Below, piece by piece: positions 5,621-60,492 of a stretch of 64,000 bases of DNA; within the stretch, counting starts at the first letter, position 1, and each line of letters begins with the position of its first letter. The notes beneath the pieces were generated by a model. That model saw only the letters and a program-made list of their open reading frames with translations. It was not told the DNA's origin and made no database searches. Source of the DNA: Candidatus Nanoarchaeia archaeon (lineage in GTDB: Archaea; Nanobdellota; Nanobdellia; SCGC-AAA011-G17; JAFCDX01); NCBI GenBank assembly GCA_041651575.1, contig JBAZJB010000001.1:74430-138429 (forward strand). The letters are read 5' to 3'. The position numbers and the translations under genes were made by a program.

Positions 5621-6132
5621 TTTAAATTATGCATAAGAGCAGCATATTTTTTGTCTCTTACATCTCCAATTATTCTTGCAGGATTTCCAACAACTACTGA
5701 ATATGGTTTAACATCTTTAGTTACCATACTTCCTCCACCTATAAAAGAATATATTCCTATTTTAATTCCAGGCCTTATTATTGCTCCTCCACCAATTGTA
5801 GCATTATCTTCAACTACAACTTCTTCTAATTTCCATTCTCCTCTGGAAGCTTTTTCTGCTGTTGGAAACATGTCATTTAAAAAAGTTGCTCTAGGACCAA
5901 CAAAAACAGAATTTCCTATTATTGTTCCTTCTGGAACGAAAACATAAGATTGTAATCTACAATTATTTCCAATTCTAGCATCTTTTTTTATTTCAGAATA
6001 ACTTCCCACTTGGGTATTTTCTCCAATAATACAACCATATAAATTACAAAAGTGCCATATTTTAGAACCTTTTCCAATTACAACATCATCAGTTATTAAA
6101 CTATTTTTTCCAACGAAATAATCTTTACTCAT
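5617..6132 (-). CDS. Hexapeptide-repeat (LbH) sugar N-acetyltransferase
   Basis: Repeated [LIV]G..x..[LIV] hexapeptide periodicity (IGKGSKIWHFCNLYGCIIGENTQVGSY...). 4-nt overlap with the aminotransferase. Confidence 0.6.
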   Translation of the reverse strand: MSKDYFVGKNSLITDDVVIGKGSKIWHFCNLYGCIIGENTQVGSYSEIKKDARIGNNCRLQSYVFVPEGTIIGNSVFVGPRATFLNDMFPTAEKASRGEWKLEEVVVEDNATIGGGAIIRPGIKIGIYSFIGGGSMVTKDVKPYSVVVGNPARIIGDVRDKKYAALMHNLK

Positions 6133-44634: not shown

Positions 44635-45114
44635 TTAACCGAAGTATTGGACTTTCTCTTTTTTCTCTGAGGATTCCCAACCTTTTATCAATTTTTCAAA
44701 TATTTTTTTAATTTTGTCTTTATTATCATTCCAATCTTGGTAAAATTCTTTTATGAATTTGGCATTTTCTTCTTCTTTTGATTCTATTTCTAAGGAAGCA
44801 GATCTCCTTTCAAATATCATCATATGACTTAATAATTTTGAAATGTTTTCTTTTTCTACTTCATCAAAGAAATTATTTTGTTTAATAGAAACAATAACTC
44901 CTGGATTTGGCATTAAAACTGCCTGTAAGTTATTACAAACAAAAATTAATTTTTCACTCATTCTTCTTCTTATAACATCTAATAAAAACTTTTCATTTAC
45001 ATTTTCTAGATTAACATTAGATAATTCGAATTCCTTGTCCAAACTATTAAAATCTGATAAACTATACTTTGTTTTGTATTTACTATATTCTTTTTCTAAG
45101 TTTGTTTTTTCCAT
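44635..45114 (-). CDS. Hypothetical protein
   Basis: ORF only. Confidence 0.25.
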   Translation of the reverse strand: MEKTNLEKEYSKYKTKYSLSDFNSLDKEFELSNVNLENVNEKFLLDVIRRRMSEKLIFVCNNLQAVLMPNPGVIVSIKQNNFFDEVEKENISKLLSHMMIFERRSASLEIESKEEENAKFIKEFYQDWNDNKDKIKKIFEKLIKGWESSEKKEKVQYFG

Positions 45115-45128
45115 TTTAAAGGATTATA

Positions 45129-45223
45129 AGCCCCGACCGGGAATTGAACCCGGGACCTCTTCCTTACCAAGGAACTGAGCAGTTTTCATCAAACTAGTGC
45201 TCTACCGACTGAGCCATCGGGGC
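45129..45223 (-). tRNA. tRNA-Thr(GGU) with 22-nt non-canonical intron (between positions 27 and 28)
   Basis: Minus strand. Acceptor GCCCCGA/TCGGGGC. D-arm GCTC-AGTCGGTA-GAGC. T-arm CCGGG-TTCAATT-CCCGG. Anticodon arm C|TTCC-TTGGTAA-GGAAG after removing TAGTTTGATGAAAACTGCTCAG, leaving a mature length of 73 nt. Confidence 0.55.
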
Positions 45224-45853
45224 GCTTTTAATAAAATCTACCTTCTCTTTATTTTTTAAAGGTATGTATTTTAATATTTTATAGAAATCCTTTTTATGTA
45301 TATAAATCTGATGGTAAACATGATTATTATACTTCCAAGGGCAAGAATGATAAGAAAATTTAAATTGTTTAAACATATTATCACAAAATTTAGCTAAATA
45401 TTTACTTGCTGTAGAAAGCCCAAAACCACTTCCCTTTTTACCTCCGTCTGTATCTAATAATCCTGTAAGTAATGGGGCATAATACTTTTTTGGTAAATTT
45501 GGAATTTTAGCAATTTTTGCTTTTTTACCGGTGGTAATTCCTTTATTTTTTAAGAATAAGTATATCTTTTTGGATTCTATTGGGCAATTATATAAAATTT
45601 TTCTATCTTTCTTTTTTCTAATTTCTAATCGCGGATTTATATTAAATAATCTAACAAATAGAGGAATGTATACTTCTTTACAGAAATTTAAAGAATTACA
45701 GAAAAAATAAATAAGGTGTCTTTTCTGTATTTTTCCATTTGGTCTTTTTGTAAATGCTTTAGGTAAACTTCCGTCCCCTAAAATTAAACCACAAAAATAA
45801 GCTAAATCATTATTCCATCTTTTTGGTAAAATTATATTTTTATTTATGCTCAT
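45194..45853 (-). CDS. LAGLIDADG-family homing endonuclease-like protein (free-standing)
   Basis: Two LAGLIDADG motifs 'LAYFCGLILGDGSL' and 'LLTGLLDTDGGKK' about 110 aa apart. The last 10 codons read into the tRNA-Thr 5' end, so the true C-terminus is uncertain. Confidence 0.55.
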   Translation of the reverse strand: MSINKNIILPKRWNNDLAYFCGLILGDGSLPKAFTKRPNGKIQKRHLIYFFCNSLNFCKEVYIPLFVRLFNINPRLEIRKKKDRKILYNCPIESKKIYLFLKNKGITTGKKAKIAKIPNLPKKYYAPLLTGLLDTDGGKKGSGFGLSTASKYLAKFCDNMFKQFKFSYHSCPWKYNNHVYHQIYIHKKDFYKILKYIPLKNKEKVDFIKSAPMAQSVEH

Positions 45854-45962
45854 ACCACTATGGTGCTTTTTTTATTTATAAATCTCACGCACACCCGTTT
45901 GCAAGTTGCAATTTGTTGTAATATATATTTTGTAGAATATACTTTTTATAAGAAAAAATAAG

Positions 45963-46046
45963 TGTGGGAGAAGGGATTTGAACCCTCGCAAGCACTAAGC
46001 TACTGGATCTTAAGTCCAGCGCATTTGACCGCTCTGCCACTCCCAC
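45963..46046 (-). tRNA. tRNA-Leu(UAA)
   Basis: Minus strand. GTGGGAG/CTCCCAC acceptor. 3-bp D-stem with 11-nt D-loop. Anticodon arm CTGGA-CTTAAGA-TCCAG. Long variable arm. T-arm GAGGG-TTCAAAT-CCCTT. Discriminator A. Confidence 0.75.
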
Positions 46047-48608: not shown

Positions 48609-49064
48609 TTTATTTATAGGGAATGTTTTTTCAACAAACCTCTTTATAATTTCTTTTGCAGTTTCTAGAGACTTATAAGCGTGGCATTCGTAAGGAGTCT
48701 TTATAAATTTAGATCCTTGTTTTCCAAGAGTATATGCAGAAACTTGTTCTTCTAATCCTTCTTTGAATAAACATAAAATGGGTTTGCCTAAGCTTACTAG
48801 ATCAGATATTTCTCCACCAACACCTAAGCTAGGATTACTTATCTCGAAAATTCCACAATCTGCTCCTAAAATCCAGTTGTAATCTCTATCATGAATATCG
48901 GTATTTGTTAATTTAGCTTCACTTTTTTGCCAATCCCCTGTTTGATGCCTTGACATTAATAGATAACCTAATTCTTCAATAATATCTGGAAGTTTGGCTA
49001 ACTCTGTTTTATCTACTACGCCATATCCTCCACGCATTGAACATCCAAAAAATACTTTTACCAT
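48600..49064 (-). CDS. 2'-deoxynucleoside 5'-phosphate N-hydrolase (DNPH1/Rcl-like; nucleoside 2-deoxyribosyltransferase superfamily)
   Basis: 'KVFFGCSMRGG' and 'NPSLGVGGEISDLVSLGKPILCLF' resemble the 'YFCGSIRGG…QPSLGVGYELG…ILCLF' pattern as I recall it for DNPH1/Rcl. Confidence 0.6.
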   Translation of the reverse strand: MVKVFFGCSMRGGYGVVDKTELAKLPDIIEELGYLLMSRHQTGDWQKSEAKLTNTDIHDRDYNWILGADCGIFEISNPSLGVGGEISDLVSLGKPILCLFKEGLEEQVSAYTLGKQGSKFIKTPYECHAYKSLETAKEIIKRFVEKTFPINKSE

Positions 49065-49082
49065 AAAAATTAAATTGCCTCT

Positions 49083-49111
49083 TTATTTATAAACCTTTCT
49101 TTTGTTATCAC
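49083..49111 (-). promoter_or_regulatory. BRE/TATA promoter with GTGATAACAAA upstream element (variant of the 24679 and 36198 element)
   Basis: TATA at 49087-49094, 23-30 nt upstream of the ATG at 49064. Confidence 0.45.
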
Positions 49112-49402
49112 TTTAAAGAAGTTATTATAACTCTAACCTATTTTATCTTAGGTTTGATTTTTGTAGTAATTGGTTTAAAGATTACTCGTAAAGTTAACAA
49201 GAATTAATTATTCTGATTTTGTATTAGAATTTCCTATGTTTGTGGTTCTAAACTTTCCACCGTGTTTGTAAGGATTGTACCTTCTTTTATTTCTTTTTTC
49301 TTTTCTTGATTTTCTATAGCTTGCACATTCAAAATCTGACATATTTTTACTAATGTTTTCTAATATATAAAATTATTTAAATTAAAAGATTAAGTTAATG
49401 GT

Positions 49403-50386
49403 ATGAGAAATAAAACTCTGATGAAACTTGTGTTGTTTGCTTTTTTAATAGGAGCAGGTTTAATTGGTTATAGTCAGAAGAATATTTCTCCTATGGCTGT
49501 TCTTGAGCAACCAAAAATAATACAGGAAAATTACAAATATATGCAAGTTTATTTTTGTGAAACTGATGATTGTGGTAAAATTCAAGCAGATTTAATAAAA
49601 AACACAGAAAATCCGGATTGTGCCTTTTATGATATTGATTTGGAAAATATGGTTAGTGAATTATCTAAGAAAAATTATAGATTAGTTACAAATGATCATA
49701 GTAAGATTAGTTTAGAACACAAATTTGATACTAATAAAGCTTTAATGCATGACAAATTTTGTATTTATTCAAATAATACCTTTTCTTCAGGTTCTTTTAA
49801 TCCGAAAGAAGCTAGTTTGTTTAAAGATTATAATAATTTAATAGTAATTCAATCAGATTATCTATCTCAGAATTATAGAGATGAATTTGAAGAGTTATTT
49901 TCTGGAATATTTGGTTCTGGAGCTAAAGTAAGATATCCAAAAGTACAATATGGAGATATTTTAATAGAAAATTACTTTTGCCCGGAGGATTCTTGCCAAA
50001 AACACGTTTTAGAACAAATGGATAAAGCAAATTCTAGTATTTATGGATTATTATTTTCCTTTACAGATAGTTATATTGCAGAAAAATTAGTTGAAAAGAA
50101 AAATCTCGATATTAAATTGGTTGTTGAGAAACAAAGGATGAATATGCAATATGAAAAGTACAAATTCTTGAAAGAAAATGGAATAAATATAAAAACAGAT
50201 TCAAATCCTTATTTACTTCATGATAAAGTATGGATAATTGATAGAAAAATTGTAATAACAGGAAGTTATAATCCAACTGCTTCTGGAAATACTAAGAACG
50301 ATGAAAATATATTAATAATTCATTCTTCAGAATTAGCTGAAAAATTATTAAAAAGATTTGATTCTATTTATTCTAGTGCAAATTAG
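49403..50386 (+). CDS. Secreted phospholipase D-superfamily protein (Nuc-like nuclease / two HKD motifs)
   Basis: Signal/TM 'MRNKTLMKLVLFAFLIGAGLIG'. 'HDKFCIYSNNTFSSGSFN' and 'HDKVWIIDRKIVITGSYNPT' (HxKx4Dx6GSxN). Confidence 0.6.
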   Translation: MRNKTLMKLVLFAFLIGAGLIGYSQKNISPMAVLEQPKIIQENYKYMQVYFCETDDCGKIQADLIKNTENPDCAFYDIDLENMVSELSKKNYRLVTNDHSKISLEHKFDTNKALMHDKFCIYSNNTFSSGSFNPKEASLFKDYNNLIVIQSDYLSQNYRDEFEELFSGIFGSGAKVRYPKVQYGDILIENYFCPEDSCQKHVLEQMDKANSSIYGLLFSFTDSYIAEKLVEKKNLDIKLVVEKQRMNMQYEKYKFLKENGINIKTDSNPYLLHDKVWIIDRKIVITGSYNPTASGNTKNDENILIIHSSELAEKLLKRFDSIYSSAN

Positions 50387-50417
50387 AGTTTTATACCTTT
50401 TAAATACGATATAAAAA

Positions 50418-50426
50418 TATTTATAA
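50418..50426 (+). promoter_or_regulatory. TATA box (ATTTATAAA) about 25 nt upstream of the giant surface protein gene
   Basis: Spacing consistent with a leaderless archaeal transcript. Confidence 0.4.
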
Positions 50427-50449
50427 ACGCGTATACTACACTATTTATT

Positions 50450-53400
50450 ATGCATAAAAAGAGGGTAAGAGATACTTTTTACTTTTATACTTCTAAAAGA
50501 GAAAAAGGAAAAGTCAAAAGCGTTTACTTAGGTACTAATTTCTTATCTGCAAAGAAAAGAGAACTAGAGTTACAATTTAATAAGTTTAGTATACTACAAA
50601 CAAAATATGTATTAATGCTTTTAATTTTAGTACTTTTATTATCTGGATTTTATTTTATGGGAAATTATACTGGATTATTTATTTCTAATGAAACAGGAGA
50701 AACTTTTGTAAATGAAACTGAAGGTATTACTTTAACTGAACCTTCAAATGTTTCTGAAACCATAGCAGAAACTAATATAACAGAAATACCTGAAGAAATA
50801 ATTCTTGTAGAAGAGATTATAATCCCAGAAGAAGAACCAGAAGAAAGTTTTACCTTACAAGATTTAATTTTAAATAGGGGCAATGGACTACAAACTAATT
50901 TTACAGGAATAACTCCTGCAAATAATTCAATTCAATCAAACACAAATATATTTGTGAATGTTTCAAGCAGTGATGATGGAGATCATTATACTTTTTTGGA
51001 TTTTGATAGAGATTTGGCTTTATGGATGACAATGGATGATGTAAATGCTTCAACAGAGCCAACTGATTTATCAATATATAGCAACAATGGAAGCAGACAA
51101 GGAAACGCAGCACAATCTGCTTCTGGACATTTTGGAAAATCATTTAGTTTTGATGGTACTGGAGATTTTGTTGCTATAAAAAATGCAAATATTCTTAATC
51201 CGGCAGATAGATTAACTATTTCTGCTTGGATATATGCAAATGAATGGGAAACAAACCGTTGGGAAGGAACAATTGTTGGAAAAGATGATTGGGCAGATGG
51301 AAATGCTAATGGTTATGTATTAAGAACAGGAGATAATGGTAGACTTTCTTTTGCATTTGGAAAGGGGGCAGCAGGATGGTCAGAAATACTTTCAGATCAA
51401 ATAATGGCCATAGGAACTTGGTATCATGTTGTTGTAGTATTAAACAATACAAATATGAGTTTATTCATAAATGGAACAATTAAAAAAAGTGCATCTTTAC
51501 CAAGTGTAACAACTATAAACCCCTCTTCATATGCTTTAGATATAGGTAGAAGTACTTTTGCTACAGATAGATTATTCAATGGATTGATAGATGAAGTTTT
51601 AATTTTTAATAGAAGTTTATCTGATCAGGAAGTTTATGCCTTGTTCAATGCTTCATCAAATAATTATTATAATAATTTTACTAATCTTATTCTAGGAACT
51701 CATACATTTACTGCTTATTCTGTTAATAGTTCTGGAGTAAAAAATCAAACAGAACAAAGAATTGTAAGAATTATAGAAGAAGCAAATAGGCCTGCAATAG
51801 ATTTTGTTGATCCTACTCCAGGAAATGGAGCAAATACTTCAAACACTTCTGTTGAGATTAATGTTTCAATAGCTGAACAGAATTTAAATTCTTTAATTTA
51901 TAATTGGAATGGAACTAATTTTACTCTCTATGATAATACTTTGGTTCTAAGATATAATTTTGATAATAGAAGTGTATTAGGAGAAAATTCAACTTATGTT
52001 ATGGATATGAGCAATTATAGTAGCAATGGTAGTTTAATTGGTCCTCCAAATTTTATTACAGCTGGACGTTATGGTTTAGGATTAAACTTTTCTGGAAATG
52101 CTCAATATATTAATATAACTGATAACCCTAGAATAGATGTTACCAATAATTTTACATATTCTGCATGGATTAATCCTGTAGGTTATAATGCTTGTCAAGG
52201 AATTATTAGTAAATATCATGTAGGTTGGGGAAATGGGCCTACCTTTAGATTAAAATGTGCTGAACCTTATAATACAATTGATTTTAATGAATTAGTTTCA
52301 ACAAAAGTTATTGATTTGAATACTTGGACTCATGTTGTTGGAATTATTAAAGATGGAGTGGCATATGTTTATGTAAATGGAGTGTTAGATGCTTCTGGAG
52401 CTCCAGGATATGCCGTTTTAGATAATGCTCAACCATTAATGATAGGAGTAGATTTCTTTGTTAGTCCAAGATATTGGAATGGTTCTCTTGATGAGATAAA
52501 AATATGGAATAGAAGTTTAACTGCAGAAGAAGTTTATCAAGATTATGTTTCAAATTTATACAAATTTAATTCTACACAATGGTATTTTTATATAAATCAA
52601 TCACAGAATGCTACAACTAATTTAGGTTATGGAAATTATACTTATCAAGTTTTTGCAGAGGATAAATTTACACTTTCAAATCAAACAGGACAAAAATTAA
52701 TTAATCTAAATAATAATATCCCTACTTTTTTTAATATAACTTTTTTTGATAATGTAACAACTAGTTCATATGGAAAAGCAAAACAATTTAATGGTTCTGT
52801 GGCTATTGGGGATTTAGATTCTGGACAAAAATTAAATATTTCCTTTTTTTGGTATGAACAAGATTCTATAATCATCTCTAATAATACTGCAGGTTCTAAT
52901 ATGAGTAATATTACTAATGGAATAAATGGAACGATGTATTACACAACACAAAATTTAACTGCATTAAATTACAAGCTGGGTTATAATTACTCTTTAGGAA
53001 TTTACGTTTGTGATGGATTTGGATGTAATCAATCCAATTCAACTAGATTATTCATTAATAATACATTGCCTTTCTTTAGAAATATTACTTTATATGATAA
53101 TGTAACAACCACTTCTATAGGGAAGGGTTATTCATTTAATGCTTCAACTTTTATAGAAGATGCTGATAATGATAAATTAAACATTTCATTTTACTGGTTA
53201 AAAATAAATCCATATTCTATAATAAAAACTTCAACAAATAATGCAAATCAAAACATTACTAATGGAAATAATGGAACAGAATATTATTCTAGTATTAATT
53301 TAACTTATTCTGATTATGAATTAGGATTTAATTATACTTTTTTAGTTCAGGTTTGTGACAATTTATATTGTAATACTAGTAATTGGTCAACAAGTATATT

Positions 53401-55093
53401 ATTTATTAACAATTCTATGCCTACAAATGTTTCCTTATTTACTCCAAATAATGATTCAATAACAGGAACTAATAATACCAATTATAGTTGGTATAGTTCT
53501 GTAGATTTAGATGAAGATATACTAAATTATATCTTAGAAATTGATGATGATATTAATTTTGAATCTATAGATTATTATTCAGATTATATCGGTAATTCAA
53601 CTATAATAAGTAATAAATCTCAACAATTAACAGATGGAGTGTATTATTGGAGAATTATTACTACAGATAATTATTCTAATTCAACAGTATCAGATATAAG
53701 AAAATTAACTATAGATACAACAAGTCCTAATTTAACTATATTATACCCTATGAATAATTCAGGATTTTATGGTAATGTTACTATAAATCTAAATATAACA
53801 GATAGGAATAATATAACTAATTGTACTTTAAATTTAAACAATCTATTAAATATAACAGAAATATCAATAATAAAAAACATTACAACCAATATTTCATTAT
53901 ACAATCTAAATATATCTAAATATAATTATACTATAAATTGTACAGATGTAGCAAATAATACTATTTTAAGTGAATTAAGACAATTTTCAATAATCTATAC
54001 AACCTCTTTTTCTGGTGAGACCACTAATATGAGTGCTGTTAATGTATCAAATATATCAGATTTGACAGTAGAAACTTCTTCTAAAGGAAAATTAGTCTTT
54101 AAAGAAAATATAGATTTAAGCAATGGAACAGATTTAAGTTCTTACATAACCATTTCTTCAAATTACATAGAAATTAATTCAACAGCCTATCCTGAATTAA
54201 ATAAATCTGCTAATATTACTTTATATGGAATTACCTATTCCAATCCAGAACCATTAAGAAATGGTTTGACTTGTCCAACAACAATTTGTCAAGAAATAAG
54301 TTATTCTGGAAACGTATTTGTATTTAATGTAACTCAATTTACAAGTTATTCTGCAGGAGAAACCGCAGTGTCTGGTGGACCTGGTGGCGGAGCAGCAGGT
54401 GGTGGCGGAGGCGGTGGAGCTGTAAAAGAAAAAGTAACTTATGAATGTACTAAAAATAGTGATTGTTCAGAAGGGTATACTTGTTATGGAACTAAATGTG
54501 TAAAATTATTCGACGTAAAGATATTAGAAATTCAATCTCCAATTACTTCAACAGGATTCTTTGATTTAACTTATTATATAAAAGGAATGGCAAATATTAA
54601 TGGAGATGTAATTATAAAATTTTATCTAGATAAAAATGGAAATATAACAGAACTTGGAAAAGATACAGTTTACTTTGGAAACTTTGAAGAAAAAACAGAA
54701 AAAACAAAGTTATTCTTACCAAGTTATCTAGAAGGAGTATACGACTTTAATGTAGAAGCACAATTTGAAGATTATTCTGCTAGCTCTTTCAGAAAGATAG
54801 AAATAATAAAGAAAGAAAATAAAACAGAAATTCTAGAAAATGGAAAACCAATAGAAATGTCTAGTTATGAATACTTTAGATATTCTGTCTGGCCTATACT
54901 AAAAATAATAATATATACATTAATTATTATTGCAATAGTTTTCCTTGGAATAAAATTACTAACTAAAAAAAGAATTAAAAACATAAAGAAAAAGTTCTTA
55001 AAAAGATTACATAGAAAATACAATAAAAAATTAAAAGTGTTTAAAAAGAAATTAAAACGCTTAATAACCAAGTATATAACTTCTAAACTCTAA
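50450..55093 (+). CDS. Giant (1547 aa) cell-surface protein with two LamG/concanavalin-A-like lectin domains, tandem Asn-rich modules, Gly linker, C-terminal TM anchor and Lys-rich tail
   Basis: LamG_3-like blocks ('LTISAWIYANEW…GLIDEVLIFNRSLSDQEVYALF' and 'FTYSAWINPVGY…GSLDEIKIWNRSLTAEEVYQDY'). Two roughly 115-aa repeated modules. 'GGPGGGAAGGGGGGGA' linker. TM 'ILKIIIYTLIIIAIVFLGIKLL' followed by a K-rich tail. Very dense N-x-S/T sequons. Confidence 0.6.
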   Translation: MHKKRVRDTFYFYTSKREKGKVKSVYLGTNFLSAKKRELELQFNKFSILQTKYVLMLLILVLLLSGFYFMGNYTGLFISNETGETFVNETEGITLTEPSNVSETIAETNITEIPEEIILVEEIIIPEEEPEESFTLQDLILNRGNGLQTNFTGITPANNSIQSNTNIFVNVSSSDDGDHYTFLDFDRDLALWMTMDDVNASTEPTDLSIYSNNGSRQGNAAQSASGHFGKSFSFDGTGDFVAIKNANILNPADRLTISAWIYANEWETNRWEGTIVGKDDWADGNANGYVLRTGDNGRLSFAFGKGAAGWSEILSDQIMAIGTWYHVVVVLNNTNMSLFINGTIKKSASLPSVTTINPSSYALDIGRSTFATDRLFNGLIDEVLIFNRSLSDQEVYALFNASSNNYYNNFTNLILGTHTFTAYSVNSSGVKNQTEQRIVRIIEEANRPAIDFVDPTPGNGANTSNTSVEINVSIAEQNLNSLIYNWNGTNFTLYDNTLVLRYNFDNRSVLGENSTYVMDMSNYSSNGSLIGPPNFITAGRYGLGLNFSGNAQYINITDNPRIDVTNNFTYSAWINPVGYNACQGIISKYHVGWGNGPTFRLKCAEPYNTIDFNELVSTKVIDLNTWTHVVGIIKDGVAYVYVNGVLDASGAPGYAVLDNAQPLMIGVDFFVSPRYWNGSLDEIKIWNRSLTAEEVYQDYVSNLYKFNSTQWYFYINQSQNATTNLGYGNYTYQVFAEDKFTLSNQTGQKLINLNNNIPTFFNITFFDNVTTSSYGKAKQFNGSVAIGDLDSGQKLNISFFWYEQDSIIISNNTAGSNMSNITNGINGTMYYTTQNLTALNYKLGYNYSLGIYVCDGFGCNQSNSTRLFINNTLPFFRNITLYDNVTTTSIGKGYSFNASTFIEDADNDKLNISFYWLKINPYSIIKTSTNNANQNITNGNNGTEYYSSINLTYSDYELGFNYTFLVQVCDNLYCNTSNWSTSILFINNSMPTNVSLFTPNNDSITGTNNTNYSWYSSVDLDEDILNYILEIDDDINFESIDYYSDYIGNSTIISNKSQQLTDGVYYWRIITTDNYSNSTVSDIRKLTIDTTSPNLTILYPMNNSGFYGNVTINLNITDRNNITNCTLNLNNLLNITEISIIKNITTNISLYNLNISKYNYTINCTDVANNTILSELRQFSIIYTTSFSGETTNMSAVNVSNISDLTVETSSKGKLVFKENIDLSNGTDLSSYITISSNYIEINSTAYPELNKSANITLYGITYSNPEPLRNGLTCPTTICQEISYSGNVFVFNVTQFTSYSAGETAVSGGPGGGAAGGGGGGGAVKEKVTYECTKNSDCSEGYTCYGTKCVKLFDVKILEIQSPITSTGFFDLTYYIKGMANINGDVIIKFYLDKNGNITELGKDTVYFGNFEEKTEKTKLFLPSYLEGVYDFNVEAQFEDYSASSFRKIEIIKKENKTEILENGKPIEMSSYEYFRYSVWPILKIIIYTLIIIAIVFLGIKLLTKKRIKNIKKKFLKRLHRKYNKKLKVFKKKLKRLITKYITSKL

Positions 55094-55133: not shown

Positions 55134-56951
55134 ATGTCAAAAGAAGTTTTATCAAAAGAGAAAAAGGCCTTATTATTTGGTAATGAGTCAGTTGTAAGAG
55201 CTTGTTTAGAGTCGGGTGTAGGCTTCTCGGCTTCATATCCAGGAACTCCTGCTTCTGAAATAGGTACTGTATTGGCAGAAGTATCAAAAGAAACAGGATT
55301 ATACTTTGAATGGTCTACTAATGAAAAAGTTGCTTTGGAAGCAGCAGCAGGTGCCGCATTTTCTGGAGTAAAATCAATAACTGCAATGAAACATTATGGT
55401 TTAAATGTAGTTTCAGATTCATTATTACCTTTAACATATTTAGAATGTCCTTTAGTAGTTGTTGTAGCAGATGATCCAGGATGTTTTAGTTCTATTGAAA
55501 CAGAACAAGATACAAGATGGTATTCTAAAATGGGTTATATTCCTATGTTAGAGCCAAGTTCTCCTGAAGAAACAATGGATGTAACAAAAAAAGCATTTGA
55601 AATTGCTTGGAAATATAAAATTCCAGTTATAATAAGATTAACAACAAGAGTTTGTTACACAAGATCAATAATTAATTTAAGTAAAATACCAAAAATAAAT
55701 TCTATTGGAAGATTTGAAAAACCAATAAATTATGAAGGTTCTTGCAGTCATACTGTTTTAGGTCATGAAAAATTATTAAATAAAATAGAATTATTAAAGA
55801 AATTATCTGAAAAATCTGAATTAAATTTTACTGAAGCAGGAACAGGAAATGTAGGAATTATTACTTCTGGTGTTTCTTACAGATATGTAAAAGAAGTTTT
55901 TGATGATTTAAAAATTAAATTGCCTTTATTAAAAATAGGTATGAGTTATCCTATGCCTGAAGAAAAAATAAAGAATTTCTGTAAAAAATTAAAAAAAGTT
56001 TTAATCGTTGAAGAAGTTGATCCTATAATTGAAAACGAAGTTAAATGTTTAACAAATAATTTAGAAGTTCATGGTAAAGATTTTTTATCTTCTGTTGGAG
56101 AATATAATACTGAAATTGTTTTAAGTGGAATATGTAAAATATTAAATAAAAAATTCCCAAAAGACATTGAAAATATAGGTAAACAATATAATAATACAGA
56201 AATAGAGCCAAGAATTCCATTTTTATGTGCAGGTTGTCCTCACAGATCTACATTTTATGCTATTAGAAAAGTAATTCCAGATGCTCCAAAATTAGGAGAT
56301 ATTGGTTGTTATTTATTAGGTTCTTGGAAACCAGAAAAAATAGAAGATATAATTGTAAGTATGGGTGCAGGAATAAGTTTAGCTCATGGAGTTTCAAAAT
56401 CTACAAATAAAAAAACAGTTGCTTTTATTGGAGATTCAACATTTTTCCATGCAGGTGTTCCAGCATTATTGAATTTAGTTTATAATAAATCAGATATTTT
56501 ACTAGTTATTTTAGATAATAGATGGACTGCAATGACTGGCCATCAACCTACATTAACAACAGGAAGAAATGCAACAGAAGAAGCAAAGATAATTGATATA
56601 GCAGAAATTGTTAAAGCTTGTCAAGTTGATAATTACGCAAGTGCAAATGTTTACAACATGAATGAATTATTAACTACTGTAAAAGATTTATATTCAAAAA
56701 AAGGAGTTTCTGTTTTGATTGCTAAAGGAGAATGTAAGTTAGCTTATTTGAGAAGATTAGCAAAAGAAAAGAAAAATTATTTCAAATTTGAAGTTTATCA
56801 ACAAAATTCAGACTTAAAAGAGCTTGATAATTTTAAATGTCCAGCAATATTCAAAGAAAATGGAAAATATTCAATCGATGCAAATTTATGTTGGGGTTGT
56901 ACTGTTTGTAAACAATTAGCACCTAGTTCAATAAAAATAAAAACACAATGA
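55134..56951 (+). CDS. iorA: Indolepyruvate:ferredoxin oxidoreductase subunit alpha
   Basis: N-terminus 'LLFGNESVVRACLESGVGFSASYPGTPASEI'. TPP-binding 'GDSTFFH' region. C-terminal Cys cluster 'CWGCTVC'. Confidence 0.7.
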   Translation: MSKEVLSKEKKALLFGNESVVRACLESGVGFSASYPGTPASEIGTVLAEVSKETGLYFEWSTNEKVALEAAAGAAFSGVKSITAMKHYGLNVVSDSLLPLTYLECPLVVVVADDPGCFSSIETEQDTRWYSKMGYIPMLEPSSPEETMDVTKKAFEIAWKYKIPVIIRLTTRVCYTRSIINLSKIPKINSIGRFEKPINYEGSCSHTVLGHEKLLNKIELLKKLSEKSELNFTEAGTGNVGIITSGVSYRYVKEVFDDLKIKLPLLKIGMSYPMPEEKIKNFCKKLKKVLIVEEVDPIIENEVKCLTNNLEVHGKDFLSSVGEYNTEIVLSGICKILNKKFPKDIENIGKQYNNTEIEPRIPFLCAGCPHRSTFYAIRKVIPDAPKLGDIGCYLLGSWKPEKIEDIIVSMGAGISLAHGVSKSTNKKTVAFIGDSTFFHAGVPALLNLVYNKSDILLVILDNRWTAMTGHQPTLTTGRNATEEAKIIDIAEIVKACQVDNYASANVYNMNELLTTVKDLYSKKGVSVLIAKGECKLAYLRRLAKEKKNYFKFEVYQQNSDLKELDNFKCPAIFKENGKYSIDANLCWGCTVCKQLAPSSIKIKTQ

Positions 56952-57517
56952 AATCAGATATAATAATAACAGGATACGGAGGACAAGGAGTTTTAACAAT
57001 TGCAGAAGTGATAGCAAAAGCTGCTTTAAGTCAAGGATATAATATTTCACAGACAGAATTACATGGACTTGCTCAACGTGGAGGTTCTTTACAATGTCAT
57101 ATAAGAATTTCTGATAAAAAAATAAATTCTGAATTAATTTTGGTTGGAAGTGCTGATTTAATAATAGCTTTAGATCCTTTAGAAGCATTAAGAGCTTGTT
57201 ATTGGGCAAATCCAAACACAACAATCTTAATTAATTATAAAACTTCTAAACCTTATCTGGTTGAAGAACTTTCTCCAGAAGGATTAATAACTAAAATTAA
57301 AAAATTCTCAAAGAAAATAGAAATTGTAAAAGCAGACGATATCGTTCAAAAGTTAACAGGAAATATTATGGACGCAAATACTTATATTTTGGGTTATGCT
57401 TTAAAGAAAAAGATTTTAATTTTGAATAAAGATAAAATTTGGAAGTCAATAACTGATAAGATTAGACCAGAATTCATAGAAAGCAATAAAAAGGTATTTG
57501 AAACAGCATTAAAATAA
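56948..57517 (+). CDS. iorB: Indolepyruvate:ferredoxin oxidoreductase subunit beta
   Basis: 'IIITGYGGQGVLTIAEVIAKAA' pyruvate-oxidoreductase gamma-like domain. 4-nt overlap with iorA. Confidence 0.65.
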   Translation: MKSDIIITGYGGQGVLTIAEVIAKAALSQGYNISQTELHGLAQRGGSLQCHIRISDKKINSELILVGSADLIIALDPLEALRACYWANPNTTILINYKTSKPYLVEELSPEGLITKIKKFSKKIEIVKADDIVQKLTGNIMDANTYILGYALKKKILILNKDKIWKSITDKIRPEFIESNKKVFETALK

Positions 57518-57537
57518 TTTTTAATAGGGGGTGAAAA

Positions 57538-58314
57538 ATGTATTCGGAAGAGCAATATAAAAAAGCATTTGATTTGAGAAAAGAAGGTTTTACATATAAT
57601 GAAATAAAAGAAAAACTTAATCTTTTATCACTAAACGCAGCATATGGTTGGATTAAAAAAAGAAATCTACCGCGCGGATCATTTTTAAGTTCTGATGCTA
57701 AAAAATTATCTCCAGAACTGGCTTATATTTTGGGGGTAATTCAAGGTGATGGATATGTTTCTATTAGTAGAACAAAAGGCTGTGCAAAATTAGAAGCAAA
57801 AGACAAAGATTTCGTAAAAAATTTTAAAAATAAATTAAGTAAATGGTCCGGACAAAAATCTTATTTTAATCTAAGAAAAGACAGAAATTTATATACGGCA
57901 ACGCTTAATTCATTAAGGGCATCACAATTTCTTAAAGATTTTAATATTTATAATTTATCTAATACTAAAAAAGATATAAAAATCTCTTTTTTAAGAGGGT
58001 TATTTGATTCAGAGGGGGGAGTATCAGGTTATAATTTAAGCACTCCTAGAACTGCTACGAGATTTATAGCTTTTTATAATACAGATAAAGATTTAATATT
58101 CCTTGTTAAGAATATGTTAGAATCTTTAGGAATAAGAGTTCAAAATATAGATAAAAGGATTAAAAGTGGTTTTTCTACTAATACTCTGCTTTTTAGACTT
58201 AGGATAGGTGGAAAAGAGAATTTAGAAAAGTTTAATAATACTATAAGGTTTTCGATAAAAAGAAAAAATAAAAAACTTGAAGAAGTTTTAAGGAGTTATA
58301 AGAAAAATGTTTAA
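57538..58314 (+). CDS. LAGLIDADG-family homing endonuclease-like protein (free-standing) with N-terminal HTH-like region
   Basis: Motifs 'LAYILGVIQGDGYVS' and 'FLRGLFDSEGGVS' about 90 aa apart. Confidence 0.55.
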   Translation: MYSEEQYKKAFDLRKEGFTYNEIKEKLNLLSLNAAYGWIKKRNLPRGSFLSSDAKKLSPELAYILGVIQGDGYVSISRTKGCAKLEAKDKDFVKNFKNKLSKWSGQKSYFNLRKDRNLYTATLNSLRASQFLKDFNIYNLSNTKKDIKISFLRGLFDSEGGVSGYNLSTPRTATRFIAFYNTDKDLIFLVKNMLESLGIRVQNIDKRIKSGFSTNTLLFRLRIGGKENLEKFNNTIRFSIKRKNKKLEEVLRSYKKNV

Positions 58315-59401
58315 AAAATTTAATAAATTTAGTATAATTTTCTTATTTATTATTCTTTTATTTACTCCTTGTTTGGTTATGGCTGAACAGAATGTAGACT
58401 TATACTTCTTTTACGGAAAATCCTGTCCACATTGTGCAAATATGGAAGTTTTTTTACAAGATACACAAAAAGAATATTCTAATTTAAATATTAAAGAATT
58501 TGAAATATATTTCAATGAGAAAGATAGAGAATATTTACAACAATTAGCAACAGCGTATGGAACTAAAGTTGAGGGTGTTCCAACAATTTTCATTGGAGAT
58601 AAATTCTTTGTAGGAGAATCTCAAGAAGTTAAAGATGGAATAATAGAACAAATACAGAAATGTTCTCAAGAAAAATGTGAAATAAAACAAGAGCAACAAA
58701 CAGGAATATGGGAAAAATTAACAATACCTGCGGTTATTTCTGCTGCTGCAGTTGATTCAATTAATCCATGTGAATTTGCAGTATTAATTATTCTATTAAC
58801 TACAATTTTAGTTGCTGGAAAAAAGAAAAAAGCATTATATGCAGGATTGGCATTTAGTGCTGCAATGTTTTTATCATATTTAGCAATGGGTTTTGGTTTA
58901 TATTCCGCAATACAATATTCTGGAATTACACATATTATTTACATAATCGTTTCTGTATTAGCAATTTTAGTTGGATTATTTAATTTGAAAGATTATCTTT
59001 GGTATGGTAAATGGTTTATCATGGAAGTTCCTTTATCCTGGAGACCTAGAATGAAAGGTCTTGTTAAAAGTGTAGCTTCTATTCCTGGTGCTTTTGGTAT
59101 GGGTTTAGTAGTTAGTTTATTTTTATTGCCTTGTACTTCTGGTCCTTATATTGTTATACTTGGATTATTGGCTAAAGCAGCAACAAGAGCAAATGCAGTT
59201 CCATTATTATTACTTTATAATTTGATATTTATTTTACCTATGTTGATTATTACTCTTGCAGTTTATTTTGGAATTACTACAACAGAAAAAGCAGAAGAAT
59301 GGAGAACAAGAAAATTAAGAACTTTACATTTAATTACAGGTTCAATTATTTTATTATTAGGTATTGTAATGTTAGCCAGTGTTATTTTTGGATGGCTTTA
59401 A
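58307..59401 (+). CDS. Thioredoxin-fold (CPHC) domain fused to CcdA/DsbD-like disulfide-transporting membrane domain
   Basis: Signal peptide. 'FFYGKSCPHCANMEVFL' Trx/DsbA-like. TM domain with paired Cys 'SINPCEFAVL' and 'LLPCTSGPYIV'. Confidence 0.6.
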   Translation: MFKKFNKFSIIFLFIILLFTPCLVMAEQNVDLYFFYGKSCPHCANMEVFLQDTQKEYSNLNIKEFEIYFNEKDREYLQQLATAYGTKVEGVPTIFIGDKFFVGESQEVKDGIIEQIQKCSQEKCEIKQEQQTGIWEKLTIPAVISAAAVDSINPCEFAVLIILLTTILVAGKKKKALYAGLAFSAAMFLSYLAMGFGLYSAIQYSGITHIIYIIVSVLAILVGLFNLKDYLWYGKWFIMEVPLSWRPRMKGLVKSVASIPGAFGMGLVVSLFLLPCTSGPYIVILGLLAKAATRANAVPLLLLYNLIFILPMLIITLAVYFGITTTEKAEEWRTRKLRTLHLITGSIILLLGIVMLASVIFGWL

Positions 59402-60211: not shown

Positions 60212-60230
60212 ATATACATACTTTTTCTTA

Positions 60231-60470
60231 ATGAAAAATGTTGATGAATTAAAGAAATTTTCTGTATATCCCGTTATTATAACTTATTACACTACTGGAA
60301 TAGATACAGCTATTGCTGCTTTTCATAAAGAAGCTTATAATGTATTTGAAAAAACTGAAGAACTTGCTATTAAAAAAGCAACCACTAAATTTAAAAAAGA
60401 ATTCCCAGATAAAACAATTGATAGAATTGGGATAGGTATAAGCACTAGATTAGAGGATTGTTTATTTTAA
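60231..60470 (+). CDS. Hypothetical small protein
   Basis: ORF only. Confidence 0.25.
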   Translation: MKNVDELKKFSVYPVIITYYTTGIDTAIAAFHKEAYNVFEKTEELAIKKATTKFKKEFPDKTIDRIGIGISTRLEDCLF

Positions 60471-60492
60471 ATAAGTTTTAATTCTATATATC

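What the first reader, a model, noticed from the sequence alone, without database searches (positions are those of the whole stretch)
57538..58314. Second free-standing LAGLIDADG endonuclease-like gene immediately downstream of iorAB
This 258-aa ORF has motifs LAYILGVIQGDGYVS and FLRGLFDSEGGVS plus an N-terminal HTH-like segment. It sits in an intergenic position between iorB and a DsbD-like gene and is not intron- or intein-borne. Two unrelated free-standing LAGLIDADG genes in 64 kb are unusual and suggest either active homing endonucleases spreading intergenically or domesticated DNA-binding proteins.
Basis: partly seen in the sequence, partly recalled or inferred. Interest (0 to 1): 0.55.

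Follow-up and report, generated by a model that had tools for sequence, protein, structure and literature searches.

The report
Free-standing LAGLIDADG endonuclease beside thioredoxin gene
The ORF is a real, intact LAGLIDADG endonuclease gene with an added DNA-binding helix-turn-helix, one of a small family in tiny-genome (DPANN) archaea that always sits next to a thioredoxin-type gene yet is missing from close relatives, so it looks more like a long-lived selfish nuclease gene than a tamed regulator.

Summary
Window 57538..58314 (+) encodes a 258-aa protein with two LAGLIDADG_3 stretches (Pfam 5e-17) and an I-DmoI/PI-PfuI-like fold (AF2 pLDDT 91). It has an N-terminal three-helix HTH, and both metal-binding acidic residues are kept (D71, E159).

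It is not intron- or intein-borne. It lies in a tight same-strand array: iorA, iorB, this gene, trx-ccdA.

It belongs to a small DPANN orthogroup (51-63% identity). In 12 of 12 other loci the gene is divergent from an 87-aa CxxC thioredoxin-like gene that heads a 2-oxoacid dehydrogenase operon. Intact copies are under strong purifying selection (dN/dS about 0.1-0.16) and largely co-diverge with that neighbour (r = 0.70).

The gene is nevertheless dispensable:
- A relative with 92-95% nucleotide identity carries an unrelated 155-aa membrane-protein gene in exactly this slot.
- A clean empty site exists at the canonical locus (L117 versus L178).
- Two copies carry frameshifts.
- About 60 Trx-E1-E2 operons lack it.

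The nearest outgroup carries a homing-endonuclease-associated repeat in place of the HTH.

Best reading (0.5): a catalytically competent free-standing homing-type endonuclease tied to one genomic address. Main rival (0.3): a domesticated DNA-binding or regulatory protein. It is a new member of a known kind and of moderate interest.

The parts
57538..58314 (+). Free-standing HTH-LAGLIDADG endonuclease gene (258 aa)
   Evidence: ORF list. Pfam LAGLIDADG_3 at 5e-17 with two stretches. AF2 model pLDDT 91. Foldseek top hits PI-PfuI and I-DmoI. Identical to an NCBI protein named 'LAGLIDADG family homing endonuclease [Candidatus Nanoarchaeia archaeon]'.
57538..57660 (+). N-terminal three-helix HTH module (residues 1-41)
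   Evidence: Helices H4-15, H20-27 and H32-40 in the AF2 model. The segment is conserved across the orthogroup, W38 nearly invariant. Sub-threshold HTH_28/HTH_23 hits in orthologue L003. Relatives carry other HTH types or the PF18780 repeat at this position.
57712..57753 (+). LAGLIDADG motif 1 (residues 59-72, ELAYILGVIQGDGY); catalytic Asp71 is codon 57748-57750
   Evidence: G70-D71-G72 are invariant in 16 sequences. The profile alignment places D71 on the I-DmoI GDG aspartate.
57970..58017 (+). LAGLIDADG motif 2 (residues 145-160, KDIKISFLRGLFDSEG); catalytic Glu159 is codon 58012-58014
   Evidence: F156, D157 and G160 are invariant. E159 is nearly invariant, with Asp in one member. It aligns with I-DmoI E117 (role of E117 from PMC3384342).
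57527..57534 (+). Shine-Dalgarno-like GGGGGTGA, 3 nt before the ATG, inside the 20-nt iorB-LAGL spacer
   Evidence: Read directly from the sequence. GGTGA also lies 8-11 nt before the ATG in L008, L011 and L094. The inference is that the gene is translated as an internal gene of the ior transcript.
55134..57517 (+). iorA (55134..56951) and iorB (56948..57517): 2-oxoacid:ferredoxin oxidoreductase genes directly upstream
   Evidence: Pfam POR_N and TPP_enzyme_C for iorA, and POR for iorB. 94.6% nucleotide identity and the same gene order in relative L175.
58307..59401 (+). Thioredoxin/glutaredoxin-CcdA (DsbD-type) fusion gene; its start overlaps the LAGLIDADG stop by 8 nt
   Evidence: Pfam Glutaredoxin/Thioredoxin at residues 31-100. 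Sources name it cytochrome c biogenesis protein CcdA. Its N-terminal domain is the only match in the window to the 87-aa Trx-like partner of the orthologues (tblastn 7e-10).
57499..58402 (.). Segment with no nucleotide match in close relative L175 (the polymorphic slot)
   Evidence: blastn blocks stop at 57498 and resume at 58403. L175 holds a 155-aa membrane-protein gene here. The first ~200 nt of trx-ccdA are more diverged (48-83%) than the rest (89-100%).

Best explanation
This is an intact, probably catalytically active, monomeric two-domain LAGLIDADG endonuclease with an N-terminal helix-turn-helix that adds DNA contacts. It is encoded by a free-standing gene.

It belongs to a small DPANN-archaeal lineage of such genes bound to one genomic address: the 5' side of a thioredoxin-fold gene attached to a 2-oxoacid-oxidising operon. 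In relatives that operon is Trx87-E1alpha-E1beta-E2. Here it is iorAB / trx-ccdA.

The gene behaves as a dispensable, selfish-type element. It is inherited mostly vertically. It is kept intact by selection on the protein. It is repeatedly lost precisely, frameshifted, or swapped for other genes in close relatives.

The likely mechanism is inferred, not shown. The enzyme would cut alleles that lack it at or near the conserved 5' part of the thioredoxin-fold gene. It would then be copied in by recombinational repair, as in the 'intronless homing' of phage free-standing endonucleases. In this genome it rides on the iorAB transcript.

Shown here: fold, motifs, catalytic residues, context, selection, and presence/absence polymorphism.
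Inferred: nuclease activity, the target site, and homing.
For: Fold and motifs:
- Established.
- D71 and E159, the metal-binding acidic residues, are invariant or nearly so in 16 members. They are also kept in distant subfamilies, unlike in WhiA (PMC3384342).

Presence/absence:
- L175 shares 92-95% nucleotide identity and the same iorA-iorB-[slot]-trxCcdA-dedA order, but has an unrelated 155-aa membrane-protein gene in the slot.
- L117 has Trx87, 79 bp, then Fer4. L178 and L094 have the LAGLIDADG gene inserted there. Flanking proteins are 83-85% identical. The right junction lies directly after the stop codon.
- L093 has ACS-alpha (88% to L003) next to Trx87 without the gene.
- About 60 Trx-E1a-E1b-E2 loci with at least 1 kb upstream lack it, and its occurrence is patchy within the low-GC clade.

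Decay stages:
- A -1 frameshift is present in L011/L012/L099 and another in L005.

Address specificity:
- 12 of 12 orthogroup loci have the Trx87 gene divergently adjacent while the other flank varies.
- The window copy is also adjacent to a Trx-fold gene.

Other support:
- One moderately supported tree conflict with the flanks. LAGL groups L005+L008 at 86% bootstrap. Trx, E1a and E1b group L003+L005 at 92-100%.
- The nearest outgroup (43-44% identity) carries the Pfam 'homing endonuclease associated repeat' instead of the HTH. Such module swapping is typical of homing endonucleases.
- The best PHROG hit is 'endonuclease'.
Against: - No invasion was caught. No copy is much more similar than its flanks. 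LAGL and Trx87 identities co-vary (r = 0.70 over 55 pairs) and are similar in magnitude. That fits long vertical descent, which a purely selfish gene should not survive without homing.
- dN/dS of about 0.1-0.16 equals that of the neighbours and is equally expected for a host-useful protein.
- No target site was identified. The CxxC-coding region shows no difference between loci with and without the gene.
- Orientation relative to the Trx-fold gene differs: divergent in relatives, co-directional and overlapping here.
- In the window the slot holds another gene in the relative, not an empty site. G+C matches the host (26.4% versus 26.7%). There are no flanking repeats. It does not look like a fresh insertion.
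- Parsimony on the E1a and LAGL trees makes the L117 state a loss rather than a gain in L178.
- The positions aligned with the I-DmoI secondary active-site residues Q42 and K120 are A/V87 and V162. K88, aligned with K43, is not invariant. Activity is therefore not assured.
Confidence: 0.5

Rival explanations
1. Domesticated LAGLIDADG-HTH protein with a host function. It would most likely be a sequence-specific DNA-binding regulator (or a redox-linked co-factor) of the adjacent thioredoxin-fold / 2-oxoacid oxidation genes, analogous to bacterial WhiA.
For: - Adjacency to a Trx-fold gene is invariant in 12 of 12 orthologous loci despite rearrangement of everything else.
- The adjacency is re-created with a non-orthologous Trx-fold gene and a non-homologous 2-oxoacid enzyme (IOR instead of OADH) in the window.
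- Distant homologues lack these neighbours.
- Purifying selection acts over the whole length, including the HTH.
- The gene co-diverges with its neighbour.
- In the window it is packed like an operon, with a Shine-Dalgarno-like sequence and an 8-nt overlap with trx-ccdA.
- WhiA is among the structural matches (8dy9_I).
Against: - The catalytic Asp and Glu are conserved family-wide. WhiA lost them.
- The supposed target operons are intact without the gene in most lineages and in close relatives.
- Two copies are frameshifted.
- The IOR-Trx and OADH-Trx linkages exist independently of the gene, so only the Trx adjacency needs explaining.
- No conserved operator-like motif was found in the divergent intergenic regions beyond TATA and Shine-Dalgarno elements.
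Confidence: 0.3
2. An ancestral accessory nuclease with some other cellular role (for example DNA repair, or defence against mobile DNA). It would be simply in the course of being lost during DPANN genome reduction, and its link to Trx genes would be historical synteny.
For: - The pattern fits loss only: vertical descent plus repeated precise loss and pseudogenes.
- Other subfamilies also occupy stable positions, next to radA, aspS, alba and the cox operon.
Against: - Historical synteny does not explain why the window copy, at a different locus, is again beside a Trx-fold gene.
- There is no match to defence-system models.
- No repair-gene neighbours occur in the orthogroup.
Confidence: 0.12
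3. An inactive relic: a decaying former homing endonuclease gene with no function, whose open frame is a matter of chance or recency.
For: - Frameshifted copies exist in two lineages.
- The gene is absent from close relatives.
Against: - dN/dS is about 0.1-0.16 over deep divergence.
- There are 38 invariant columns, including the catalytic residues and the HTH.
- The AF2 model is confident.
- There are no internal stops in the window copy.
Confidence: 0.05

Closest known systems
Archaeal monomeric LAGLIDADG homing endonucleases: I-DmoI (rRNA-intron-encoded) and the endonuclease domain of the PI-PfuI intein
   Same: - Two tandem LAGLIDADG domains in one chain.
- An acidic residue at the end of each motif.
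- These are the best structural matches (Foldseek E about 1e-9, TM to target about 0.7) and the best profile matches (PI-PfuI 5e-5, I-DmoI 0.016).
   Different: - Not in an intron or intein.
- Has an extra N-terminal HTH.
- Only 18-22% identity.
- The I-DmoI secondary active-site positions Q42 and K120 align with A/V and V.
- Neither target site nor cleavage is known.
Free-standing homing endonucleases of T-even phages (SegF, MobE and others; GIY-YIG/HNH) that spread by 'intronless homing'. This comparison rests on my own knowledge, not on a paper read here.
   Same: - A gene inserted between conserved genes.
- Presence/absence or gene-swap polymorphism between close relatives.
- A non-homologous segment in the same slot in the relative.
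- Elevated divergence in the first ~200 nt of the neighbouring gene.
   Different: - Different nuclease family and different host domain.
- No cleavage or marker-exclusion data here.
- The lineage looks far more vertically stable than the phage examples.
WhiA/DUF199 (bacterial LAGLIDADG + HTH transcription factor)
   Same: - A LAGLIDADG core fused to an HTH.
- Free-standing and chromosomal.
- A structural match (8dy9_I).
- Some relatives give weak LAGLIDADG_WhiA Pfam hits.
   Different: - The HTH is N-terminal, not C-terminal.
- The catalytic acidic residues are retained, whereas WhiA lost them.
- Not universal in its clade.
- No Pfam WhiA hit for the window protein.
HO endonuclease of yeast (a domesticated, free-standing, intein-derived LAGLIDADG enzyme)
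   Same: - A free-standing LAGLIDADG nuclease.
- Keeps its catalytic residues.
- Carries an added DNA-binding module.
- Shows that a host function and nuclease activity can coexist (PMC7282813 abstract).
   Different: - HO retains a Hint-domain relic and a C-terminal zinc finger.
- No developmental switch is known here.
COG3780-type archaeal 'DNA endonuclease related to intein-encoded endonucleases' (for example P. abyssi PAB1251)
   Same: - The same broad superfamily: HTH + 2x LAGLIDADG + a C-terminal GFSIxRKxxKL motif, free-standing, 250-350 aa.
- Listed as a lineage-restricted archaeal protein in PMC1852104.
   Different: - The window protein is 25-33% identical to those.
- It belongs to a separate DPANN orthogroup with its own conserved neighbour.

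Membership tests
LAGLIDADG endonuclease superfamily (monomeric, two-motif type) | [quoted passage not shown] | tested here: met
   Pfam PF14528 with two stretches at 5e-17. AF2 secondary structure. Foldseek hits to I-DmoI and PI-PfuI.
LAGLIDADG endonuclease superfamily (monomeric, two-motif type) | A conserved acidic residue at the C-terminal end of each motif (metal binding) | tested here: met
   D71 is invariant. E159 is nearly invariant, with E-to-D in one member. They align with I-DmoI D21 and E117.
LAGLIDADG endonuclease superfamily (monomeric, two-motif type) | Site-specific cleavage of a long (14-22 bp or more) DNA target | not testable with these tools
   Needs biochemistry. No candidate target could be derived.
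Homing endonuclease gene (mobile, selfish) | Presence/absence polymorphism at a defined site among related genomes | tested here: met
   Window versus L175, a slot swap at 92-95% nucleotide identity. L178/L094 versus L117, a clean empty site. L093.
Homing endonuclease gene (mobile, selfish) | Horizontal spread: gene phylogeny discordant with the flanks, or copies more similar than the flanks | tested here: inconclusive
   Overall co-divergence, r = 0.70. One conflict with 86% versus 92-100% bootstrap. No copy is markedly more similar than its flanks.
Homing endonuclease gene (mobile, selfish) | Degenerate copies, as expected from the invasion-decay-loss cycle | tested here: met
   -1 frameshifts in L011/L012/L099 and in L005.
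Intein- or intron-borne homing endonuclease | Embedded in a Hint splicing domain or in a self-splicing / BHB intron | tested here: not met
   There is no Hint or Intein_splicing Pfam hit. The ORF has its own ATG and a Shine-Dalgarno-like sequence, and lies between two complete genes. The NCBIfam hits touch only the endonuclease part of intein-containing proteins, far below the cut-offs.
WhiA-like domesticated LAGLIDADG regulators | [quoted passage not shown] | tested here: not met
   D71 and E159 are conserved. The WhiA criterion is taken from PMC3384342.
WhiA-like domesticated LAGLIDADG regulators | Universal, single-copy conservation within the host clade | tested here: not met
   Absent from L175, L117, L093, L095, L100/101 and about 60 further Trx-OADH loci.
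WhiA-like domesticated LAGLIDADG regulators | LAGLIDADG core plus a C-terminal HTH; matches to Pfam WhiA models | tested here: not met
   The HTH is N-terminal. The window protein has no PF14527 or PF02650 hit.

The most novel reading that the evidence does not exclude
The protein is a nuclease-derived regulator, or a still-cutting 'molecular switch', that works together with the adjacent small 4-Cys thioredoxin-like protein to couple redox state to expression of 2-oxoacid-oxidising enzymes in DPANN archaea. That would be an archaeal counterpart of the bacterial WhiA-WhiB pair, re-created twice: with Trx87/OADH in relatives, and with Trx-CcdA/IOR here.
Probability: 0.15. Interest if true: 0.75.

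Novelty: new member of a known kind. Interest (0 to 1): 0.42.

Why it matters
Free-standing LAGLIDADG genes are well studied in organelles, yeast and inteins, but hardly at all in archaeal chromosomes.

This family offers a tractable case. The gene has a fixed address beside a thioredoxin-fold gene. Intact, frameshifted, swapped and empty alleles are all available in public data. That combination is what is needed to test whether 'intronless homing' operates in archaea, or whether a nuclease fold has been recruited to a host task while keeping its active site.

If the enzyme is active, it and its HTH-swapped relatives are also new long-target nucleases from very AT-rich genomes.

If the finding is ordinary, the result is still useful. 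It shows that the database annotation 'homing endonuclease' for this ORF is structurally sound, and that the gene is an accessory, not a core, component of the ior/trx locus.

Tried and rejected
- **Intron- or intein-borne reading.** Rejected: there is no Hint domain, the flanking genes are complete, and the gene has its own Shine-Dalgarno-like sequence.
- **Close paralogy with the 45194..45853 ORF.** Rejected: 27% identity, E = 3e-6.
- **Derivation from the LAGLIDADG intein inside the neighbouring ACS-alpha gene of L010.** Rejected: only generic motif similarity, E of 0.1 or worse.
- **L093 as an exact empty site of L001.** The small ORF between ACS-alpha and Trx87 is not clearly homologous to L001's 94-aa gene, so L093 counts only as 'gene absent'.
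- **Search for a shared operator in the divergent Trx87-LAGL intergenic regions.** Only TATA-like and GGTGA (Shine-Dalgarno) elements recur. The GC-rich direct repeats in L006, L010 and L013 are not shared.
- **Search for an immunity polymorphism in the CxxC-coding region.** No difference was found between loci with and without the gene (the script stopped before printing the window and L175 rows).
- **Flanking repeats, sigma-70 promoters and terminators.** Nothing above chance, and the promoter scan is not applicable to archaea.
- **Defence-system models.** No hit.
- **Foldseek against afdb50.** Unavailable.
- **Polarising the window/L175 swap with a third close genome.** Impossible: the next Trx-CcdA relative is only 66% identical and lies in another context.
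- **Literature searches** for characterised archaeal free-standing HTH-LAGLIDADG proteins found none.

Full report
**1. Observation**

The ORF at 57538..58314 (+) is real: ATG start, 258 aa, with the quoted motifs.
- Pfam LAGLIDADG_3 matches at 5e-17 with two stretches. Hom_end is a weak second hit.
- NCBIfam touches only the endonuclease portions of intein-containing IF-2, RtcB and DnaB, far below their cut-offs.
- The AlphaFold2 model built on 16 homologues is confident (pLDDT 91.1, pTM 0.85). [quoted passage not shown]
- Foldseek against the PDB ranks PI-PfuI (1dq3) and many I-DmoI entries first, at E of about 1e-9 to 1e-8. PI-SceI, I-Tsp061I, the bI3 maturase and WhiA (8dy9_I) come further down.
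- A profile search of PDB sequences gives PI-PfuI (5e-5) and I-DmoI (0.016). It aligns D71 with the I-DmoI GDG aspartate and E159 with E117.
- The protein is identical to an NCBI entry from a 766-kb contig of a Candidatus Nanoarchaeia MAG, annotated 'LAGLIDADG family homing endonuclease'.

**2. Local anatomy**

Four genes lie on the + strand with almost no spacing.
- The genes are iorA (55134..56951), iorB (56948..57517), the LAGLIDADG gene, and a thioredoxin/glutaredoxin-CcdA fusion gene (58307..59401).
- The 20-nt spacer after iorB contains GGGGGTGA 3 nt before the ATG.
- The LAGLIDADG stop overlaps the next start by 8 nt.
- G+C is 26.4%, against 26.7% for the window.
- No meaningful flanking repeats were found.
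- There is no intron or intein context.
- The other LAGLIDADG ORF (45194..45853, -) is a distant relative: 27% identity, E = 3e-6.

**3. The family**

- A word-indexed search found 45 relatives. Fifteen of them are 51-62% identical over the full length and form one orthogroup. The rest are 40% identical or less and carry various N-terminal HTH types.
- An exhaustive HMM search gives 116 clusters at E <= 1e-30, 1881 at <= 1e-10 and 5658 at <= 1e-3. The orthogroup collapses to two or three 50%-identity clusters.
- In the 16-sequence alignment, 38 columns are invariant, including G70-D71-G72 and F156-D157-G160. E159 is nearly invariant. The HTH and a C-terminal FSIxRKNKKL motif are conserved as well.
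- K88, which aligns with I-DmoI K43, is usually but not always Lys or Arg. The positions aligned with Q42 and K120 are A/V and V.
- The role of these residues in I-DmoI, and their loss in WhiA, are taken from PMC3384342.

**4. Conserved address**

- In every orthogroup locus with upstream DNA, the gene is divergently adjacent to an 80-94-aa thioredoxin-like gene. These loci are L001, L003, L005, L006, L008, L010, L011, L013, L094, L173, L174 and L178.
- That neighbour carries CxxC plus a second Cys pair, and gives sub-threshold Glrx-like and Thioredoxin Pfam hits.
- It usually heads an E1alpha-E1beta(-E2) 2-oxoacid dehydrogenase operon. ADP-forming acetyl-CoA synthetase and glutamate dehydrogenase genes are often nearby.
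- The genes on the other side vary.
- Homologues at 44% identity or less have none of these neighbours.
- In the window, the only sequence similar to this small protein is the N-terminal domain of the downstream Trx-CcdA gene (tblastn 7e-10, about 30-35% identity). The upstream enzyme is again a 2-oxoacid oxidoreductase, of a different family.
- This linkage does not need the LAGLIDADG gene. A metagenome scan with the Trx87 profile found at least 508 loci. Of the 80 fetched, about 59 had at least 1 kb upstream and no LAGLIDADG gene.
- In an E1alpha tree the positive loci are scattered within a low-GC clade. They are absent from a large 45-52% GC clade.

**5. Mode of evolution**

- LAGL and Trx87 pairwise identities are similar in size and are correlated (Pearson 0.70 over 55 pairs).
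- Nei-Gojobori dN/dS is about 0.09-0.16 for LAGL and 0.18-0.25 for Trx87, with dS near saturation.
- Bootstrapped NJ trees agree on L006+L010 but conflict on L005. LAGL groups L005+L008 at 86%. Trx, E1a and E1b group L003+L005 at 92-100%.
- Two lineages carry -1 frameshifts in A-runs.
  - In L011/L012/L099 the shift falls at EKW|SGLK. It leaves 104-aa and 154-aa ORFs, the second starting with ATG at the shift.
  - In L005 the shift is at codon 9.

**6. Presence/absence**

(a) Window versus L175.
- L175 (GCA_028716945.1, Nanoarchaeia) matches the window at 90-95% nucleotide identity in collinear blocks.
- It has iorA, iorB, a 155-aa predicted membrane protein, trx-ccdA and dedA.
- The 155-aa protein is unrelated to the LAGLIDADG protein and has no homologue in the window.
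- Homology breaks about 20 nt before the iorB stop and resumes about 96 nt into trx-ccdA. The first 200 nt of trx-ccdA are 48-83% identical, against 89-100% further on.
- No LAGLIDADG homologue above 62% identity exists in the protein collection, so this relative appears to lack the gene.

(b) L178 and L094 versus L117.
- L178 and L094 have Trx87, LAGL, an 88-aa gene (L178; not resolved in L094), then Fer4_15.
- L117 has Trx87, 79 bp, then Fer4_15.
- The flanking proteins are 83-85% identical.
- The 44 nt directly after the LAGL stop in L178 match the L117 spacer at 88.6%. This defines an empty site, CAGAAT^AATTAATTTTCG.
- Tree position suggests this is a loss in L117.

(c) L093 has ACS-alpha (88% to L003), a small unrelated ORF, then Trx87, with no LAGL gene.

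**7. Relatives outside the orthogroup**

- The nearest outgroup (L016/L017, 43-44% identity in the core) has the Pfam 'Homing endonuclease associated repeat' (PF18780, above its cut-off) in place of the HTH. Others have HTH_23, HTH_7 or HTH_38, sometimes at both ends.
- All inspected members keep the GD[GA] and FDSE[GA] motifs.
- Several genomes hold 2-3 copies.
- Other subfamilies have their own stable neighbours: radA, aspS, alba, and the cox operon in Nitrososphaerota.
- COG3780-type proteins were listed as lineage-restricted archaeal proteins in PMC1852104.
- No functional study of such free-standing archaeal proteins was found.

**8. Interpretation**

Shown:
- a two-domain LAGLIDADG fold with an HTH;
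- retained metal-binding residues;
- a free-standing, operon-embedded gene;
- a small orthogroup with a fixed neighbour;
- strong purifying selection;
- dispensability, seen as swapped, empty and frameshifted alleles.

Inferred: nuclease activity, and that the link to the Trx-fold gene reflects either the cleavage target or a functional partnership.

I favour a long-lived free-standing homing-type endonuclease (0.5), for three reasons.
- The active-site residues are kept family-wide.
- Close relatives with intact neighbouring operons lack the gene.
- Its nearest relatives have typical homing-endonuclease modularity.

The domesticated regulator or partner reading (0.3) is kept alive by two things.
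- The adjacency to a Trx-fold gene recurs at a non-orthologous locus.
- The gene largely co-diverges with that neighbour, with no caught invasion.

Other roles (0.12) and an inactive relic (0.05) are less likely.

**9. Novelty and score**

The ORF is already annotated as a LAGLIDADG homing endonuclease, and HTH-LAGLIDADG proteins are widespread. This is therefore a new member of a known kind.

What is new is the family's fixed address beside thioredoxin-fold genes of 2-oxoacid-oxidising operons. Also new is the documented allele series: intact, frameshifted, swapped and empty. Interest: 0.42.

Noticed in passing
window 45095-45894 (ORF 45194..45853, -) versus L175 1-800: The other LAGLIDADG ORF and its surroundings are 98-100% identical in nucleotides to relative L175, with one amino-acid difference in 219. 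Neighbouring protein genes are only 81-100% identical per 100 nt (mostly 83-98%). This could be recent gene conversion or homing between the two lineages, or unusual constraint. It contrasts sharply with the 57538 gene, which the relative lacks.
   Followed up: partly
window 45129-45223 (-) and 45194-45853 (-): The last ~10 codons of the first LAGLIDADG ORF (…APMAQSVEH*) read into the 5' half of a tRNA gene. That tRNA has a ~35-nt insertion in the anticodon region (Rfam tRNA 50 bits). ARAGORN calls it tRNA-His with anticodon 'atg', probably a mis-typing caused by an intron. tRNA-Leu(TAA) lies just upstream at 45962-46046.
   Followed up: partly
window 50386-55092 (ORF 50450..55093, +): The 1547-aa Asn/Thr-rich surface-type protein gene directly upstream of iorA is absent from relative L175. 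L175 has 388 bp with a 111-aa EamA-like ORF there. This is a second strain-specific replacement within 8 kb.
   Followed up: no
window 48611-49203 and 60218-60488 (79-aa ORF 60231..60470): Two further short segments have no counterpart in L175. The locus shows frequent small cassette turnover between genomes of 92-95% identity.
   Followed up: no
L093-L172 (for example L108 6001-10094): An 82-92-aa four-cysteine thioredoxin-like gene (CxHC … CGGVPF … ICG) is the first gene of a widespread Trx-E1alpha-E1beta-E2 2-oxoacid dehydrogenase operon. There are at least 508 metagenomic hits. No E3 was seen within the fetched flanks in most loci, which raises the question of whether the Trx-like protein re-oxidises the lipoyl arm.
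   Followed up: no
L011 5699-6465 (also L012, L099): The orthologue is split by a -1 frameshift into a 104-aa ORF (HTH + domain 1) and a 154-aa ORF (domain 2). The second ORF begins with ATG exactly at the shift. Both halves are otherwise intact and conserved, so a two-chain enzyme is conceivable.
   Followed up: partly
L010 5680-8391: The ADP-forming acetyl-CoA synthetase alpha gene next to the orthologue carries an intein with its own LAGLIDADG_3 domain (903-aa product). That intein endonuclease is not specifically related to the free-standing gene.
   Followed up: yes
L003 ~5858-5986, L004 2081-2209, L005 5775-5906: A conserved 42-43-aa ORF (MKDTITFKGDRNIWIDFISKIKKERKQVWEVLEKLIKDYLKK) lies between Trx87 and the LAGLIDADG gene in two lineages. 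It looks like a ribbon-helix-helix-type peptide. It has no Pfam hit.
   Followed up: no
L016-L092 (for example L037 6986-8957, L030 356-4487): Other subfamilies of free-standing HTH-LAGLIDADG genes have their own conserved neighbours. These are radA (7 loci), aspartyl-tRNA synthetase (8 loci), Alba (10 loci), and the heme-copper oxidase operon plus H+-pyrophosphatase in Nitrososphaerota (10-14 loci).
   Followed up: partly
L177 5377-5956: In a more distant Nanoarchaeia genome (Trx-CcdA 66% identical), the genes directly upstream of trx-ccdA are a DUF5320 gene and a DUF134 (sigma70-r4-like HTH) gene. A small DNA-binding protein therefore occupies the position taken by the LAGLIDADG gene in the window.
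   Followed up: no
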